This document shows, piece after piece, positions 1 to 4,925 of a DNA stretch of 4,925 nucleotides. Within the stretch, counting starts at the first letter, position 1. Every line of letters starts with the position of its first letter. Origin of the DNA: a virus (taxonomy: Duplodnaviria > Heunggongvirae > Uroviricota > Caudoviricetes); the IMG/VR virus record IMGVR_UViG_3300029471_000068; one strand, written 5' to 3'. A model generated the notes under the pieces. The model saw only the letters and a list, made by a program, of their open reading frames with translations, ran no database searches and had not been told where the DNA came from. The translations under genes and the position numbers were made by a program.

Positions 1-296
1 GGCTGTTGCTTCACACACCTTTCCAGCGCCCGCTCCACACGCAGCACGTTGGAGATCAGCCCTTCCGCTGCCTGTCGTTCCGTAATGGTTTTGCCGGGAA
101 TGACGCCCGATGTATTACCAATGCCGTCGGTCCAGACACCCGCGCTGCACTGATACGGCTGCAGACGACAGCCTTCGTAATCGGCAATCAGTTTCAGCCC
201 CTCCACGGAGGTGTGAAGCTGCTGAAAACCCGGCAGCATGGCAGCAATAGCCAGCACGGTCCCGACAAGGCAGCGTTTAACGATTGATGGATTCAT
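1..296 (-). CDS. Phage endolysin, GH24 lysozyme with N-terminal signal-anchor-release (SAR) domain; 3' end lies beyond the window start (partial)
   Basis: Hand translation of the minus strand from ATG 296..294 gives MNPSIVKRCLVGTVLAIAAMLPGFQQLHTSVEGLKLIADYEGCRLQPYQCSAGVWTDGIGNTSGVIPGKTITERQAAEGLISNVLRVERALERCVKQQP. The Gly/Ala-rich weakly hydrophobic N-terminus and the E-G-C ... C ... D-G-I-G-N-T block closely resemble P1 Lyz-type SAR lysozymes as I recall them. GGAGG lies just upstream of the ATG. The start overlaps the 3' end of the upstream holin gene. Not in the supplied ORF track because it is open at the window edge. Confidence 0.8.
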   Translation of the reverse strand, partial: MNPSIVKRCLVGTVLAIAAMLPGFQQLHTSVEGLKLIADYEGCRLQPYQCSAGVWTDGIGNTSGVIPGKTITERQAAEGLISNVLRVERALERCVKQQ

Positions 297-492
297 AGTC
301 CTCCCGCGAGATCTGCCCGTCGCGCAGAAGCTGGTAGGCTTTGTGTTTGTAGTACCAGTTGATAGCCAGCATCAGCACACCAATCATCAGGCCGCCCAGC
401 GTTGAGGCATCCTTGATGGACAAATCGCCCAGCCAGGCCAGCACGACGGCGATGCAATACGTGATAAAGGCGCTGATTCGCTCAAGCGTCAT
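277..492 (-). CDS. Putative class II holin or pinholin (71 aa, two predicted transmembrane helices, charged C-terminus)
   Basis: ORF 277..492 (-). Two hydrophobic segments (ISAFITYCIAVVLAWLG and LGGLMIGVLMLAINWYY) are followed by a K/R/D/E-rich tail. It sits between tail gene X and the endolysin, which is the holin slot of the P2 lysis cassette. Size and topology resemble the phage 21 S21 pinholin. The call rests on position and topology, not on sequence identity. Confidence 0.6.
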   Translation of the reverse strand: MTLERISAFITYCIAVVLAWLGDLSIKDASTLGGLMIGVLMLAINWYYKHKAYQLLRDGQISREDYESINR

Positions 493-495
493 AAT

Positions 496-699
496 TCAGT
501 CCCATAGCTGGACGGTCTGCACGGTGGTGGTGGTCGGAATGTCCGGCAGCTCCACCTGCAGCCCGTGAGGTAAAAAGGGGCCGTGTTCGGCAAGCCCCGG
601 ATTTGCCTTCAGTACCTGCTCCGTGACACCCTGCGTGCGCCCGTAATGACGCCAGCAAAGCGCGTCCACCGTGTCATACTGATGCGCACGCACTTTCAT
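496..699 (-). CDS. X: P2-type tail protein X (small LysM-like tail/baseplate protein)
   Basis: ORF 496..699 (-), 67 aa: MKVRAHQYDTVDALCWRHYGRTQGVTEQVLKANPGLAEHGPFLPHGLQVELPDIPTT. It matches the recalled P2 gpX pattern (GDTLDAIC-RYYGRT-G-VE-VL-ANPGLAE-G--LPHG--VELPD). Its ATG overlaps the gpL stop as ATGA (699-701). Confidence 0.85.
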   Translation of the reverse strand: MKVRAHQYDTVDALCWRHYGRTQGVTEQVLKANPGLAEHGPFLPHGLQVELPDIPTTTTVQTVQLWD

Positions 700-1163
700 C
701 AGATAAGCTCCACTGTGCAGTGCGGCGCATCCTGCACCCGGCTGATGGCCCAGCGGGCGTCACGCCACAAATCACCGCTTGCTTCCGCCAGTTCCTCGCC
801 CCGCTTCACACCGGACGCCGTGGCGTCATAGTCCTGGTAACGTTCGTTGAGCATGGCGCGTGCCCAGCAGTAAACCGCGTTGAAATAGTGCTGAATGCGC
901 TCACTTTTGCCGTCCAGCTGTTCCGCCGGAACCTCTGCCAGCGAGGCATACCCCAGCATCTGCTGGCGTCTGCGAAACTCATACAGCTCTGCGTTGACCT
1001 CCGAAATTGCCGACAGCGCAACCTGCTTTAAACGCGGCTGCGTCACCGTGCCGTCAGTGCGCATCACGCTGCGAAACTCCGACAGGTCCACATCAGGCCA
1101 GAACGGCGTATTCCTGATGATTTCCGCCTGTTCCGGTGCCTGTTCTGGCGCAACAAACTTCAT
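699..1163 (-). CDS. L: P2-type head completion/stabilisation protein gpL
   Basis: Minus-strand ORF ending NAELYEFRRRQQ...LAEVPAEQLDG...ELWRDARWAISRVQDAPHCTVELI, which matches recalled P2 gpL (NAELYEYREQK...LADVPADDIDG...ELWRDMRWAVARIQGKPRCIVSQI). Start placed at ATG 1163..1161, preceded by AGGAGA with a 7-nt spacer. The ORF track extends to a GTG at 1226 with no obvious SD, so the start is ambiguous by 63 nt. Confidence 0.85.
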   Translation of the reverse strand: MKFVAPEQAPEQAEIIRNTPFWPDVDLSEFRSVMRTDGTVTQPRLKQVALSAISEVNAELYEFRRRQQMLGYASLAEVPAEQLDGKSERIQHYFNAVYCWARAMLNERYQDYDATASGVKRGEELAEASGDLWRDARWAISRVQDAPHCTVELI

Positions 1164-1258
1164 GCTGCTTTCTCCTGAAATAGAGGGCGGTGGACGGGGT
1201 TTTGATGTGGCAGTGCCTTTCGCCACCCCGTGCCGCCCGTGCGCGGGGGCACGTTCTG

Positions 1259-1900
1259 TCAGCGGCTGTCATTGCGCAGTCTGCGCTCCAGCTGCTGTTT
1301 GTCTTTTTTCACGCCACAGCGGGGATCGAGCTGTAACGCATGGTTGAGATGATTAAGGGCGGAAGCCGGGTTGCTTTCACTCAGGACAGCGCCAATCGCT
1401 TTATGCAGACGCGCCCGTGACTGGTCCGGCATATCCAGACCGTCTGNNNNNNNNNNAGCTCCAGCGTCTGCAGCAACAGATCGGCATCAAAGCCGGTGGC
1501 GGCAAGCATTGCGCTCTGCGCCGCGTCTGCCATTTCCTCTGCCAGCACGGTCTGCACGTTGCGGTTACCCAGCGGCATCACCCAGCCATGACGCAGGGCA
1601 TGACGCCCGATCTCCAGCGCCCCGGCATAATCTCCGGCATCAATGCGCCACAGCATCACGTACATCAGCACGTCATCCTGCTGAGCGCCTCCGGCAGCCA
1701 GGACGCCCTCCGCCCAGGCGGCATATTTCGGCAACAGCTCCACCTTGATTTCCGCTTTTTTCACCGTGGACTGAACGCCCTTGAGACGGCGGCGGTCTTC
1801 CGCCAGTTGCAGCAGCATCAGGTCATAGCCCGACGCGTGGCGAACGCTGCCGCCCTCGCGGGCGGCCTGTTCAGCCTGAACGTGCGGGACTCAGGCTCAT
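1259..1900 (-). CDS. M: P2-type terminase small (endonuclease) subunit gpM; reading frame disrupted as given (apparent 1-nt frameshift near 1883-1886 and a 10-nt N-gap at 1447-1456)
   Basis: Three collinear pieces. (a) ATG 1900..1898 with GGAG upstream, 4 nt from the gpN stop, gives MSLSPA (compare P2 M start MTSPAQ as recalled). (b) Frame ending at 1818 and extending upstream without any start codon gives HVQAEQAAREGGSVRHASGYDLMLLQLAEDRRRLKG...GGAQQDDVLMYVMLWRIDAGDYAGALEIGRHALRHG...LLLQTLE. (c) After the gap, DGLDMPDQSRARLHKAIGAVLSESNPASALNHLNHALQLDPRCGVKKDKQQLERRLRNDSR with stop TGA at 1261..1259. Together these align along the recalled P2 gpM sequence. Confidence 0.8.
1447..1456. other. 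Assembly gap (10 N) inside gpM
   Basis: Run of n. gpM continues in a different frame on the far side, so the N count is not the true length. Confidence 0.95.
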
Positions 1901-1903
1901 GGG

Positions 1904-2962
1904 TTACGCTCCGGCTTCTGCTGCAGCGGCGCTGAAATCGCCAATCTGGATGTTTTCCACCAGTGCGGCGCAGCGGTAGTCCTCAACCACATAGGCTTCG
2001 TTAACGGATTCAAAATTTTCAATCCGGTCACGTTTCGGGTTGTCGATAACTGAACGGCGGCGGGTGTCTTCCTGCCAGTAGATGGACAGGTTATCCAGAC
2101 GGGTGATCAGCAGCGCATTCGGCGGGAAGAACGGCGCACGCACGGCCTGCAGGCCACCCATGCGTTTCTGACTGATGATCATATCGGCAGCCAGTTTTTC
2201 ACTGTTTTCCTGCTCTTTGTTGACCAGCGGGAAATACTTGTCAGACAGCAGTTCACGACCGCAAATCACCACCAGATCGTCATCGTCCTGGTAGACCACA
2301 TCGATAAGCTCATTGACGGCATCCATCACTACGGCGTCCAGGTTGGCATATTCGCCACCTTTCCCGACTTTCACCGCGCCCGGAGTGGTTTCACCGCCCG
2401 TGGTGGTGCTGCCCATGACGTGATCCGGTGCATCCTCACGGATTTTCTGCAGCCAGCCTTTGTTAACATCCTGCAGCAGCGGGTTTTCACTACGGTTGGA
2501 GGTTTTCGCACGCTTCACGCCGTTAAAGCCGATCATGATGCGGTCCAGTGCCTGACGTTTCACGATGGCGTCACGGATGCGCACCTGGAAATCCTGAAAC
2601 TTCGCCCACAGGTCCAGCTTCGCGTAGGTCAGCACCGTGTCAAAGTTGGTCTGCTCGCATTTATATTCCACATCGACCATCAGCGTCGGATCGACAGGTT
2701 CACGCTCTTTCGCGGTGGTGTCAGTGGTTCCGGCAATGGTGCTGCCAACACCCAGCCCCAGCAGCTGACCGGACTGCTCAGTCACTGGCGTGACGTTAAT
2801 CAGCGTCAGGAAAGCGGCGGACTGCTGGATCTGGTCTTCCAGCGTCTGCTGCACAGACGGCTCCACGGTGAACTTGCTGGACAGTTCTTCAACTGCCACA
2901 CCGTTCAGACGCGCCAGCTGCTGCAGGTAAGCGTTAAAAGCAAAGCGGGTATTCTTCTTCAT
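1904..2962 (-). CDS. N: P2-type major capsid protein gpN
   Basis: ORF 1904..2962 (-), 352 aa: MKKNTRFAFNAYLQQLARLNGV...KFTVEPSVQQTL...RIRDAIVKRQALDRIMIGFNGVKRAKTS...NPLLQDVNKGWLQK...GKGGEYANLDAVVMDA...VVICGRELLSDKYFPLVNKEQENSEKLAADMIISQKRMG...NLSIYWQ...YVVEDY...GDFS. Near-collinear with recalled P2 gpN (MRQETRFKFNAYL...FTVEPSVTQTL...). ATG 2962 is preceded by GGAG. Confidence 0.95.
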   Translation of the reverse strand: MKKNTRFAFNAYLQQLARLNGVAVEELSSKFTVEPSVQQTLEDQIQQSAAFLTLINVTPVTEQSGQLLGLGVGSTIAGTTDTTAKEREPVDPTLMVDVEYKCEQTNFDTVLTYAKLDLWAKFQDFQVRIRDAIVKRQALDRIMIGFNGVKRAKTSNRSENPLLQDVNKGWLQKIREDAPDHVMGSTTTGGETTPGAVKVGKGGEYANLDAVVMDAVNELIDVVYQDDDDLVVICGRELLSDKYFPLVNKEQENSEKLAADMIISQKRMGGLQAVRAPFFPPNALLITRLDNLSIYWQEDTRRRSVIDNPKRDRIENFESVNEAYVVEDYRCAALVENIQIGDFSAAAAEAGA

Positions 2963-2989
2963 CGGGTTTTGTGCTCCATCAGCAATTGG

Positions 2990-3828
2990 TCAGAGTGTCA
3001 ACGGGGNNNNNNNNNNNNNNNNNNNNNNNNNNNNNNNNNNNNNNNNNNNNNNNNNNNNNNNNNNNNNNNNNNNCACCAGTTCGTTAAAGGCGGTCAGCTG
3101 TGCCTGCAGGGCAGTCTCCAGCTCAGACAGGCGTTCTTCCTGCTCAGACAGGGATTTTTCGGTGCGTGCGCTCAGGTTCTGCTGCTCAGTGGCGACCAGC
3201 TCCACGGCCTTATGCACATCAGAGAACCGGGCGTCATCGGACCGCTCTTTTTTGGTAAACAGCGCCGTGACGCGGGCAAACAGGGACGGTTTGTCGTCCT
3301 GGATTTCTTCCAGTTCGATCACCGTTTCCTCTGCAGCGGTAAAGAGATTGGCAGGATTCTGTTTGCGGTTTGCCAGCGGGTTATGGGCTGCACTGGCGCT
3401 GAATGTCAGCATTTCAGTGCCCAGACTGGCGGGATCATCAGTGGCGGCCAGGCCAACCAGGTAGGCTTTGCCCGTATCAGCAAACTTCGGGCTGACTTCC
3501 ATAGAGGTGAATAATTTCTGGCCTTTTTTCACCAGTTCCACCAGGGACTCCGTTGGCTCAACGTCGGCATACAGCGCCATCTTGCCTGCNNNNNNNNNNN
3601 NNNNNNNNNNNNNNNNNNNNNNNNNNNNNNNNNNNNNNNNNNNNNNNNNNNNNNNNNNNNNNNNNNNNNNNNNAGATAAGACTTGATGTGCTCAAGGTTA
3701 ATCAGCGCGGTGTACACCGTCGGGTTGTAGCTGGCTGCCATCTGTTCCAGCCATTCACGCTGGATTTCGCGTCCGTCGGTGGTGGCACCTTCCACCCCGA
3801 TGCGAAAACGCTTTGCTTTCACTGTCAT
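2990..3828 (-). CDS. O: P2-type capsid scaffolding protein gpO; interrupted by two N-gaps (3007-3073, 3590-3673), exact 3' end uncertain
   Basis: N-terminal piece from ATG 3828: MTVKAKRFRIGVEGATTDGREIQREWLEQMAASYNPTVYTALINLEHIKSY. Central piece: ...[39 protein letters not shown]...HNPL...SDDARFSDVHKAVELVATEQQNLSARTEKSL. Both match recalled P2 gpO (FRIGVEGDT-DGR...[57 protein letters not shown]). The two pieces are in different frames across the 84-N gap. The stop at 2990-2992 lies after the 67-N gap, so its frame is unverified. Confidence 0.85.
3007..3073. other. Assembly gap (67 N) inside the 3' part of gpO
   Basis: Run of n within the gpO coding region. Confidence 0.95.
3590..3673. other. 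Assembly gap (84 N) inside the 5' part of gpO
   Basis: Run of n. The flanking gpO segments are in different frames although 84 is a multiple of 3, so the gap length is an estimate. Confidence 0.95.
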
Positions 3829-3970
3829 GAGCCGTGCTCCGTTAGAAAAAACTTACTGGAGCCTTATGGTTGCGGTGATGGGGGCAGTGAAACAATGCGC
3901 GGTATTTGTACCGGCAACCACACAAACCGCAGGCGGGGAAAGCCTTCATTCAAGGTTGTAGGTTTGTGCC
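3829..3970. promoter_or_regulatory. Divergent late-promoter control region between gpO (minus) and gpP (plus)
   Basis: 142-bp non-coding spacer between two divergently oriented morphogenetic genes, which is where P2 places its O and P late promoters. It contains the TGT-N12-ACA dyad listed separately. A CATAAG -10-like hexamer lies on the minus strand about 3863-3868, and GGAG lies 8 nt upstream of the gpO ATG. Confidence 0.55.
3907..3924. promoter_or_regulatory. TGT-N12-ACA dyad: candidate binding site for an Ogr/Delta-family zinc-finger late activator
   Basis: Sequence TGTACCGGCAACCACACA at 3907-3924 fits exactly the TGT-N12-ACA element described for P2/P4 late promoters, normally centred near -55. 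Its centre (about 3915) is roughly 55-60 bp upstream of a plausible minus-strand start site near 3856-3860 for the O-N-M-L operon. Confidence 0.45.
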
Positions 3971-4399
3971 ATGAACACCACACTGACACCCGCAGATCTC
4001 GATCCCCGTCGGCAGGCCATGCTGCTGTACTTTCAGGGATACCGCGTAGCCCGCATTGCTGAAATGCTGGGCGAGAAAGTTGCAACCGTTCACAGCTGGA
4101 AAAAACGCGACAAGTGGGGTGACTATGGGCCGCTGGATCAGATGCAGCTCACCACCGCCGCACGCTACTGCCAGCTCATCATGAAGGAGCACAAAGAAGG
4201 GAAAGATTTCAAAGAGATTGACCTGCTGGCGCGCCAGTCGGAGCGCCACGCGCGGATCGGCAAGTTTAACAATGGCGGCAACGAAGCCGACTTAAACCCT
4301 AACGTCGCCAACCGCAATAAAGGCCCACGCCGTCAGCCGGAAAAGAATGTTTTCACCGATGAGCAGATTGAGAAGCTGGAAGAAATGGAGGAGATTTAG
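3971..4399 (+). CDS. P: P2-type terminase large (ATPase) subunit gpP, N-terminal 142 codons only; truncated by the junction with foreign sequence
   Basis: ORF 3971..4399 (+): MNTTLTPADLDPRRQAMLLYFQGYRVARIAEMLGEKVATVHSWKKRDKWG...DFKEIDLLARQSERHARIGKFNNGGNEADLNPNVANRNKGPRRQPEKNVFTDEQIEKL. This matches the conserved N-terminus of P2-family terminase ATPase subunits (DPRR-A-LLYW-G; KEIDLL-RQ-ERLARV; GGNEADLNP-ANRNKGPRR-PEKN). Full-length homologues are roughly 590 aa; here a stop follows at 4397-4399 and the downstream DNA is unrelated. Confidence 0.85.
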   Translation: MNTTLTPADLDPRRQAMLLYFQGYRVARIAEMLGEKVATVHSWKKRDKWGDYGPLDQMQLTTAARYCQLIMKEHKEGKDFKEIDLLARQSERHARIGKFNNGGNEADLNPNVANRNKGPRRQPEKNVFTDEQIEKLEEMEEI

Positions 4400-4744
4400 A
4401 TGGGAAGAGAATTGTTGAAGATGGCGGATGGGTTTGCTTTGGTTGCGGAGAGCCTGCGGGAGTTGGCGGGACAGGCTGTGGAAGAAGCAAAGGCGGAGAT
4501 GAAGCAGGAGAGCAAAACAGAGAAAGGCACAGCAGATAAGAACACAGCCAGAGTAAAAGTGGATAAGAAAAAAGAGGAACAGAAGGTGGCTGTGGAGGAT
4601 ATCCGTGTGGTTCTGGCGGAGAAGTCACAGGAGGGAAAAACTAAGGAAATTAAGGAACTGCTGGGAAAATACGGGGTGGCAAAGCTGTCTGCCGTGGAGG
4701 AGAAAGATTATCCGGCGCTGCTTGCGGAAGCGAAGGTGCTGTGA
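4400..4744 (+). CDS. Hypothetical K/E-rich 114-aa protein of foreign (Firmicutes-like) origin; function unknown
   Basis: ORF 4400..4744 (+), preceded by GGAGGAG with a 6-nt spacer. Coding strand is strongly purine-rich and uses AGA (Arg), GGA/GGG (Gly) and TTG (Leu), unlike the rest of the window. I do not recognise the protein. Its stop overlaps the next ATG (TGATG at 4742-4746). Confidence 0.5.
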   Translation: MGRELLKMADGFALVAESLRELAGQAVEEAKAEMKQESKTEKGTADKNTARVKVDKKKEEQKVAVEDIRVVLAEKSQEGKTKEIKELLGKYGVAKLSAVEEKDYPALLAEAKVL

Positions 4745-4925
4745 TGGGGAGACATGCGCTGTTATCTGCTTCTTCCTCCAAGCGGTGGCTGAACTGTACA
4801 CCGTCTGCAAGGCTGGAGGAGCAGTTCACGGGAGAAACCGGGAGCGTATATGCGGAGGAAGGCACTGCCGCCCATGCCCTGGCGGAGCATAAGCTGAAAC
4901 GGCTGTTGAAGCGGCGTTCCAAGCG
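4744..4925 (+). CDS. N-terminus of a putative DUF2800-family PD-(D/E)XK nuclease (phage replication/recombination module); continues beyond the window end (partial)
   Basis: Hand translation from ATG 4744: MGRHALLSASSSKRWLNCTPSARLEEQFTGETGSVYAEEGTAAHALAEHKLKRLLKRRSK. The HALLSASS--RWLNC-PSARL ... AEEGT-AH pattern matches, from memory, the conserved N-terminus of DUF2800 proteins found in Firmicutes phages and ICEs. Open at the window edge, so absent from the ORF track. Confidence 0.5.
   Translation, partial: MGRHALLSASSSKRWLNCTPSARLEEQFTGETGSVYAEEGTAAHALAEHKLKRLLKRRSK

What the first reader, a model, noticed from the sequence alone, without database searches (positions are those of the whole stretch)
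1876..1906. Apparent 1-nt frameshift at the 5' end of terminase small subunit gene gpM
Directly seen: ATG 1900..1898 has a GGAG ribosome-binding site and sits 4 nt after the gpN stop, giving MSLSPA, but that frame drifts into non-homologous sequence. The homologous gpM frame extends upstream of its first ATG (1818) to a stop at 1891-1893 with no ATG/GTG/TTG, reading VPHVQAEQAAREGGSVRHASGYDL. The two frames meet around 1883-1886 within a CCCGC run. A sequencing error in draft data is the simplest explanation; a genuinely inactivated gpM or a programmed shift are alternatives.
Basis: partly seen in the sequence, partly recalled or inferred. Interest (0 to 1): 0.45.

Follow-up and report, generated by a model that had tools for sequence, protein, structure and literature searches.

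The report
17-base gap breaks phage gpM gene
The small-terminase gene of a P2-like E. coli prophage is out of frame because this draft scaffold lacks 17 bases that every related phage has, which is an ordinary assembly defect or very recent knock-out mutation and not a programmed frameshift.

Summary
The frame break is real in the sequence. ATG 1900..1898 has a GGAG RBS and lies 3 nt after the gpN stop. It opens a 9-codon ORF (MSLSPARSG*). The gpM-homologous frame runs from stop 1893..1891 with no start until ATG 1818. The lesion is not a 1-nt indel in a CCCGC run. The window lacks 17 nt (CGGCAGCATCGCCTGCG, junction 1883/1880) that all relatives have.

- **Relatives:** all 260 fetched loci carry a 17-nt segment, and so do the best-ranked of 669 full-coverage complete E. 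coli genomes and the 40 listed of 54 full-coverage phage records.
- **Junction:** the junction 24-mer has no match in three large collections.
- **Closest relative:** it differs in the flanking ~840 nt by only two synonymous changes, and its gpM starts at the same ATG.
- **Scaffold quality:** three N runs are mis-sized gaps, one of them also breaking gpM. A chimeric join sits at a shared 21-mer to a Firmicutes-type element.

My estimate is an assembly or library artefact at about 0.55 and a genuine, very recent hairpin-associated deletion inactivating gpM at about 0.38. Only reads can separate these two. Programmed frameshifting is effectively excluded. Interest is low.

The parts
1904..2962 (-). 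gpN, P2-family major capsid protein, intact (352 aa), stop TAA 1906..1904
   Evidence: The exact protein is indexed in 20,761 blocks of public assemblies. In all 10 loci shown a 216-aa gpM follows it.
1909..1912 (-). GGAG Shine-Dalgarno of gpM, 8 nt upstream of the ATG
   Evidence: It is identical in relatives.
1898..1900 (-). Conserved gpM start codon ATG
   Evidence: Relatives annotate gpM from the homologous ATG (MSLSPARQHRLRVQAEQ...).
1871..1900 (-). Residual 9-codon ORF MSLSPARSG plus TGA, left after the frame break
1880..1883 (-). Deletion junction. 17 nt (CGGCAGCATCGCCTGCG, covering codons 7-11 and two thirds of codon 12 of gpM) are absent here. CG at 1882..1881 is microhomology, and the flanking imperfect repeat is GCACG/GCGCG.
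1457..1890 (-). gpM body in the +1 frame (residues 13-155 of the intact protein). It is identical in protein to E. coli 88-3493 gpM and contains the Phage_term_smal domain.
1816..1818 (-). First in-frame ATG of the displaced gpM frame (Met34 of intact gpM). No Shine-Dalgarno sequence is visible upstream. It is the only possible re-start.
   Evidence: The Pfam domain starts at residue 35.
1447..1456 (.). 10-N scaffold gap inside gpM that stands for 2 real bases (GA). It breaks the gpM frame a second time.
1259..1446 (-). gpM C-terminal part (residues about 156-216), in the frame of the original ATG, stop at 1261..1259
3007..3073 (.). 67-N scaffold gap in gpO. The true length in relatives is 62 nt.
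3590..3673 (.). 84-N scaffold gap in gpO. The true length in relatives is 73 nt.
4366..4386 (+). Exact 21-mer shared by P2-like gpP and an unrelated Firmicutes-type element. The window switches source inside it, so this is a chimeric assembly join.

Best explanation
The break at the 5' end of gpM is a non-programmed 17-nt deletion that is private to this scaffold. I judge it most likely an artefact of how the sequence was produced. The window looks like a low-coverage short-read metagenome scaffold. The artefact would be either a coverage break over a GC-rich hairpin that was closed wrongly, or a polymerase jump across the hairpin during library amplification. On this reading the underlying prophage has a normal 216-aa gpM starting at ATG 1900.

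**Shown:**
- The deletion exists and is 17 nt long.
- It is absent from all relatives examined.
- The other four discontinuities in the window are assembly-derived.

**Inferred:** that this fifth discontinuity has the same origin.
For: 1. The window lacks 17 nt relative to close relatives, whose gpM starts at the same ATG.
2. The allele is unique.
   - In 5,426 complete E. coli genomes, 669 records cover at least 80% of the query. The ranking puts the best match first, and the top match is 88.1% with a 143-nt span against the 126-nt query, so none carries the deletion.
   - Of 54 full-coverage phage records, all 40 listed have the 143-nt span.
   - The junction 24-mer has 0 hits in GTDB representative genomes, IMG/VR and JGI metagenomes.
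   - A gapped pattern found the site in 260 loci, every one with exactly 17 nt. These include metagenome contigs of coverage 1.2-2.
3. Around the deletion the window differs from the E. coli 88-3493 prophage at 0 of 418 nt on one side and 2 of 424 nt on the other, both synonymous. gpM therefore shows no decay.
4. The scaffold is demonstrably faulty. The N runs of 10, 67 and 84 stand for 2, 62 and 73 nt. gpP is fused at a shared 21-mer to a Firmicutes-type element. That join recurs in an independent metagenome assembly with different SNPs. So four of the five ORF-breaking discontinuities in 4.9 kb are assembly products.
5. The missing block is the apical stem-loop of a GC-rich hairpin. From general knowledge, such a structure favours coverage dips and polymerase jumping.
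Against: - The deletion lies inside a 1,550-nt contiguous stretch (1457-3006), about 425 nt from the nearest N run, not at a visible contig end.
- A de Bruijn assembler cannot invent junction k-mers. The flanks share only 2 nt of exact homology (4 of 5 imperfect), so at least one read or a gap-closing step must have carried the junction.
- The scaffolder left a 2-nt gap open as 10 N rather than collapsing it.
- The site is not a recurrent artefact. None of the 120 fetched metagenome contigs shows a length variant.
- Deletion of a hairpin tip between short direct repeats is also what in-vivo replication slippage produces.
- No reads are available.
Confidence: 0.55

Rival explanations
1. A genuine, very recent 17-bp deletion in the prophage. 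It would arise by replication slippage between the short direct repeats GCACG/GCGCG, juxtaposed by the hairpin CGCA(C)GGC-AGCATC-GCCTGCG. It frameshifts gpM after codon 6 and leaves a 9-residue peptide. The prophage then lacks its small terminase subunit and cannot package DNA, making it a defective prophage or pseudogene.
For: - The junction sequence is contiguous and interior to a contig.
- The end points carry CG microhomology with a 4-of-5 imperfect repeat, and the deletion removes exactly the apical stem-loop of a hairpin while keeping the basal stem.
- No other indel is found in about 4.2 kb, so base-level accuracy is good.
- The lost residues include invariant H9 and R12 of a motif SPAxxHxxR conserved across five diverse Peduoviridae. 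The lesion would therefore be inactivating.
- Inactivating mutations in prophage genes are common (general knowledge).
Against: - The allele is never seen in 260 fetched loci, in the best-ranked of 669 full-coverage complete E. coli genomes, in the 40 listed of 54 full-coverage phage records, or in three junction scans.
- The rest of gpM is protein-identical to intact relatives, so there is no sign of pseudogene decay.
- The scaffold carries four other proven assembly defects in 4.9 kb.
Confidence: 0.38
2. Programmed or leaky +1 ribosomal frameshifting. Ribosomes starting at ATG 1900 would slip +1 on CCC-G (1888..1885), inside the permitted window between TGA 1893..1891 and TGA 1873..1871. The product would be MSLSP-HVQAEQ..., a gpM six residues shorter.
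For: - A CCC-G sequence lies in the only window where a +1 shift would restore gpM.
- CC[C/U]-N sites are known to be shift-prone. CCC-C at codon 2 gives up to about 1% +1 frameshifting in E. coli, and the UGG tRNAPro can shift on CCC-G in vitro (PMC4519876).
Against: - No homologue uses a frameshift. All relatives encode gpM as one ORF, and the shift exists only because 17 nt are missing.
- I saw no stimulatory Shine-Dalgarno-like element, rare codon or stop at the A site next to CCC.
- Typical unprogrammed +1 rates are below 0.003% and reach about 1% at best (PMC4519876).
- The product would lack invariant H9 and R12.
- A second frame break at the 10-N gap shows that the text of this scaffold cannot be read literally.
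Confidence: 0.02
3. An alternative start. gpM would be made from Met34 (ATG 1818) as an N-terminally truncated but functional small terminase.
For: - ATG 1818 is the first start codon in the displaced frame.
- The Pfam Phage_term_smal domain begins at residue 35 of the intact protein, so the truncated product would keep the whole annotated domain.
Against: - No Shine-Dalgarno sequence is visible upstream of ATG 1818, and it lies 52 nt beyond the stop of the 9-codon ORF, which is far for re-initiation.
- Every relative examined starts gpM at the upstream ATG with the same N-terminal length.
- The N-terminal motif is conserved from Escherichia to Pseudomonas, Burkholderia and Mannheimia phages, which implies that it is needed.
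Confidence: 0.04

Closest known systems
Intact gpM (terminase small or 'endonuclease' subunit, PF05944) of Wadgaonvirus-like P2-family prophages, for example E. coli 88-3493 WP_000059191.1 and Escherichia phage 500465-1 gp17
   Same: - Same synteny: gpP / gpO-gpN-gpM-gpL-gpX-holin-lysozyme.
- Same RBS and ATG, 3 nt after the gpN stop.
- 100% protein identity over all readable residues.
- Only 2 synonymous nt differences from the 88-3493 copy.
   Different: The window lacks 17 nt (codons 7-12) and has a 10-N gap standing for 2 nt, so the gene as written is in three frame pieces.
Deletions between short direct repeats that flank palindromic or hairpin DNA (slipped-misalignment deletion mutagenesis in vivo, polymerase hairpin-jumping in vitro). 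This comparison rests on general knowledge and is not cited.
   Same: The deleted block is bounded by CG, with the imperfect repeat GCACG/GCGCG, and corresponds to the apical stem-loop of a predicted hairpin.
   Different: The repeats are very short. The hairpin is only marginally more stable than shuffled controls (z -1.6 for DNA over 46 nt, -2.4 for RNA over 75 nt). Whether the event happened in a cell, in a PCR tube or in an assembler cannot be told from the sequence.
Short-read metagenome scaffold artefacts: k-mer-mediated chimeras, estimated-size N gaps and mis-closed gaps
   Same: The same scaffold has three mis-sized N gaps and a chimeric join inside an exact shared 21-mer. That join is reproduced in an independent assembly.
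   Different: The 17-nt loss has no N run and no shared k-mer at the junction, so the precise artefact mechanism is not demonstrated.
Programmed +1 frameshift sites (prfB-type, CCC-N slippage)
   Same: A CCC-G lies where a +1 slip would restore the frame.
   Different: The shift is not conserved in any homologue, no stimulators are present, and the shift is created by a deletion.

Membership tests
P2-family terminase small subunit gene gpM (Pfam PF05944 Phage_term_smal) | Protein matches the Phage_term_smal profile above the gathering score | tested here: met
   window 1457-1890 (-) scores 125.8 bits against a cut-off of 29.4.: the intact relative scores 138.1 bits.
P2-family terminase small subunit gene gpM (Pfam PF05944 Phage_term_smal) | Position in the late operon between gpN (major capsid) and gpL (head completion) | tested here: met
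P2-family terminase small subunit gene gpM (Pfam PF05944 Phage_term_smal) | Single uninterrupted ORF of about 216 aa from the conserved ATG just after the gpN stop | tested here: not met
   The ORF stops after 9 codons. The frame changes at 1880-1883 and again at the 10-N gap. As written it is a broken gene.
Programmed +1 ribosomal frameshift | The two-frame arrangement is conserved in homologues | tested here: not met
   All 260 fetched loci carry a 17-nt segment. The 12 annotated or gene-called relatives have gpM as a single 216-aa ORF.
Programmed +1 ribosomal frameshift | Slippery site with a stimulator (upstream SD-like element, or a slow or stop codon in the A site) | tested here: inconclusive
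   CCC-G is present. The next codon, GCA, is not a rare or stop codon, and I saw no SD-like element a few nt upstream.
Single-base (homopolymer) sequencing error | Length difference of 1 nt, within a base run, relative to close relatives | tested here: not met
   The difference is a 17-nt block, and there are no other indels in about 4.2 kb.
Assembly or scaffolding artefact | Other independent signs of misassembly in the same scaffold | tested here: met
   the N runs of 10, 67 and 84 stand for 2, 62 and 73 nt.: a chimeric join at a shared 21-mer.
Assembly or scaffolding artefact | Reads do not support the assembled junction | not testable with these tools
   No reads are available, and the source assembly was not found in the indexed collections.
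Slipped-misalignment deletion at a hairpin (genuine mutation) | Direct repeats at both end points and a hairpin between them | tested here: inconclusive
   CG is exact and GCACG/GCGCG matches 4 of 5.: a hairpin is predicted but is only weakly better than shuffles (z -1.6 and -2.4).

The most novel reading that the evidence does not exclude
The deletion is genuine, and the prophage still makes a trickle of small terminase. This would happen either by unprogrammed +1 slippage of tRNAPro at CCC-G (codon 5) or by re-initiation at Met34. The result would be a hypomorphic, nearly packaging-dead P2-like prophage, a natural example of a frameshift mutation being partly rescued by a shift-prone proline codon.
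Probability: 0.03. Interest if true: 0.3.

Novelty: not a real feature. Interest (0 to 1): 0.07.

Why it matters
It matters little biologically. It matters for annotation. The gpM gene of this scaffold should be flagged as disrupted or low quality, not as a recoding candidate. The scaffold itself should not be used for gene-content or host-range inference, because it is gapped, its gaps are mis-sized, and it is chimeric between an enterobacterial P2-like prophage and a Firmicutes-type element. If the deletion were genuine, it would only mark one more defective prophage.

Tried and rejected
1. **1-nt indel in the CCCGC run.** Rejected by nucleotide alignment.
2. **Another genome or contig with the same junction.** Looked for in complete E. 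coli genomes, INPHARED phages, GTDB representative genomes, IMG/VR and JGI metagenomes. None was found. Positive controls with a gapped pattern found 260 intact sites.
3. **Finding the source assembly.**
   - An exact look-up of the chimeric 142-aa gpP' product found only a different scaffold (L019) with the same chimeric join but other SNPs.
4. **A join between two strain backgrounds at the deletion.** Rejected. The same relative (E. coli 88-3493) is the closest on both sides, with 0 and 2 differences.
5. **Site-specific recurrent artefact.** Not supported. Even metagenome contigs with coverage 1.2-2 carry the 17-nt allele.
6. **Hairpin significance.** Only marginal.
7. **Literature.** Two searches failed on term syntax and were repeated.

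Full report
**Context**

The window carries the late (head and lysis) operon of a P2-like prophage of Peduoviridae, Wadgaonvirus-like.
- On the - strand lie gpO (from 3828), gpN (2962..1904), gpM (from 1900), gpL, gpX, a holin and the start of the lysozyme gene.
- On the + strand lies the 5' part of gpP (from 3971).
- The closest relatives are prophages of E. coli and Klebsiella, at 96-98% nucleotide identity.

**Checking the observation**

- TAA of gpN is at 1906..1904, GGAG at 1912..1909 and ATG at 1900..1898.
- The ATG frame gives MSLSPARSG and stops at TGA 1873..1871.
- The gpM-homologous frame opens after TGA 1893..1891. It reads VPHVQAEQAAREGGSVRHASGYDL without any start codon before ATG 1818.

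Aligned with E. coli 88-3493 and phage 500465-1, the window lacks a 17-nt block, CGGCAGCATCGCCTGCG, between ...GTCCCGCA and CGTTCAGG....
- The junction is at 1883/1880, ambiguous by the CG at 1882..1881.
- In the relatives gpM is annotated from the same ATG and reads MSLSPARQHRLRVQAEQAAREGG... (216 aa).
- The deletion removes codons 7-11 and two bases of codon 12. Since -17 is equivalent to +1 modulo 3, it mimicked a one-base shift.

**How unusual the allele is**

- Of 5,426 complete E. coli genomes, 669 records cover the query region. The best-ranked match is 88.1% identical with a 143-nt span for the 126-nt query, so all carry the extra 17 nt.
- The same holds for all 40 listed of the 54 full-coverage phage records.
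- An exact 24-mer across the junction has no match in 185,579 representative genomes, IMG/VR or the JGI metagenome collection.
- As a positive control and length survey, a pattern allowing 0-30 nt between the flanks found the site in 260 fetched loci. Every one has exactly 17 nt, in five synonymous sequence variants.
- Several of these metagenome contigs have coverage of only 1.2-2, so the site is not a recurrent assembly trap.

**State of the rest of gpM**

- Apart from the deletion, the window's gpM differs from the 88-3493 copy by two synonymous substitutions.
- The 418 nt on the gpN side of the junction are identical to that prophage.
- The same relative is closest on both sides, so the junction does not join two strain backgrounds.
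- There is no sign of pseudogene decay. If the lesion is genuine, it is very young.

**Quality of the scaffold**

- The three N runs are scaffold gaps of wrong size. 10 N stand for 2 nt (GA) inside gpM, 67 N for 62 nt and 84 N for 73 nt inside gpO.
- Taken literally, each of these breaks a reading frame. The 10-N gap moves the gpM C-terminus back into the frame of the original ATG.
- At 4366-4386 the window switches from gpP to an unrelated element inside an exact 21-mer shared by the two.
- That element has the gene order DUF7768 / 114-aa ORF / DUF2800 / Enc34 ssDNA-binding protein / DNA polymerase A / VapE. It is found in gut metagenome contigs with no P2 genes.
- The same join occurs in an independent ENA metagenome scaffold (L019) that differs by SNPs in both halves. 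The 21-mer is common in P2-like gpP genes.
- This is the signature of a k-mer-mediated in-silico chimera in a small-k de Bruijn assembly.
- Four of the five ORF-breaking discontinuities in 4.9 kb are therefore demonstrably assembly products.
- No other indel exists in about 4.2 kb of alignment.

**Anatomy of the deleted block**

- In intact relatives gpM codons 2-15 can form a two-tier hairpin. The basal stem is AGCCUGA/UCAGGCU and the apical stem-loop is CGCA(C)GGC-AGCAUC-GCCUGCG.
- Its stability is RNA -33.3 kcal/mol over 75 nt (z -2.4) and DNA -10.4 kcal/mol over 46 nt (z -1.6).
- The 17 nt missing from the window are the apical part. The basal stem remains.
- The end points carry CG microhomology inside an imperfect repeat, GCACG/GCGCG.
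- From general knowledge, this geometry fits three processes: replication slippage in vivo, polymerase jumping during amplification, and a coverage hole over a GC-rich structure that is then closed wrongly. It does not discriminate between them.

**Consequence if the text is taken at face value**

- Translation from the conserved start ends after 9 codons.
- The only re-start is Met34 (ATG 1818). No Shine-Dalgarno sequence is visible upstream of it, and it lies 52 nt beyond the stop.
- The Pfam domain begins at residue 35, so a Met34 product would keep the annotated domain.
- However, the N-terminal motif SPAxxHxxR is conserved in P2, phiCTX, a Burkholderia phage and a Mannheimia phage. The deletion removes the invariant H9 and R12.
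- gpM is one of the seven core hallmark proteins of P2-like viruses (PMC13100340). A genuine lesion would most likely make the prophage packaging-defective.

**Programmed frameshifting**

- A +1 slip at CCC-G (1888..1885) would restore the frame, and CCC-N sites are shift-prone. CCC-C next to the start codon reaches about 1%, while ordinary sites stay below 0.003% (PMC4519876).
- No homologue needs or has a shift, and no stimulator is visible.
- The product would lack conserved residues.
- The two-frame arrangement exists only because 17 nt are missing. I rate this at about 2%.

**Verdict**

- The finding is a private 17-nt deletion in a faulty, low-coverage, chimeric scaffold.
- I put about 0.55 on an artefact of assembly or library preparation.
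- I put about 0.38 on a genuine, very recent inactivating deletion.
- A few per cent remain for leaky rescue scenarios.
- The main evidence against the artefact reading is that the junction lies inside a contiguous contig and could not be invented by a de Bruijn graph alone.
- The main evidence against the genuine reading is its complete absence elsewhere, together with the four proven assembly defects alongside it.
- Only the reads, or a PCR across the site, can decide.
- Either way it is ordinary, so interest is low.

Noticed in passing
window 4366-4925 (junction 4366-4386): The scaffold is chimeric. gpP (terminase large subunit) is cut after 132 codons and continues, inside an exact shared 21-mer GATTGAGAAGCTGGAAGAAAT, into a Firmicutes-type mobile element or phage. 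That element carries the end of a DUF7768 gene, a 114-aa ORF at 4400-4744 and the start of DUF2800 at 4744. GC content falls and GC skew jumps at this point. The same join is present in an independent ENA metagenome scaffold (L019, ERZ28578495) with different SNPs, so it is a recurrent k-mer-mediated misassembly and not a recombinant.
   Followed up: yes
window 1447-1456, 3007-3073, 3590-3673: The N runs are scaffold gaps whose lengths do not match the real sequence (10 against 2 nt, 67 against 62 nt, 84 against 73 nt). Each would shift the frame of gpM or gpO if read literally.
   Followed up: yes
L001:2886-2960 (equivalent to window about 1858-1915, - strand); L272:159-182: Intact relatives can fold a two-tier hairpin over gpM codons 2-15 (z -2.4). 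P2 has a hairpin at a similar place. The Mannheimia phage 587AP1 record annotates a 'rho-independent terminator' a few codons into gpM, and that region folds very strongly (z -5.3). There may be a conserved structure at the gpN/gpM boundary that tunes gpM expression. Covariation was not tested.
   Followed up: partly
L140 (JAEWTL010000006.1, 'MAG: Bacillota bacterium isolate OH_SDB_141'): A 3.2-kb contig of a Bacillota MAG is 97.6% identical over its whole length to the E. coli P2-like prophage (gpN-gpM-gpL region). It is an enterobacterial phage contig mis-binned into a Firmicutes MAG.
   Followed up: partly
window 1-4365 against loci L001-L268: Different segments of the P2-like part have different closest relatives: 1-1446 matches L004/L217, 1457-2300 matches L001, 3074-3589 matches L110/L027, and 3674-4365 matches L095. 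This could be ordinary P2-family mosaicism or a consensus of more than one strain in the sample.
   Followed up: no
gpM residues 1-15 (alignment A3): The gpM N-terminus outside the Pfam domain carries a motif SPA-x-x-H-x-x-R. It is invariant at P5, A6, H9 and R12 in phages of Escherichia, Pseudomonas, Burkholderia and Mannheimia. I am not aware of a described function for it.
   Followed up: partly
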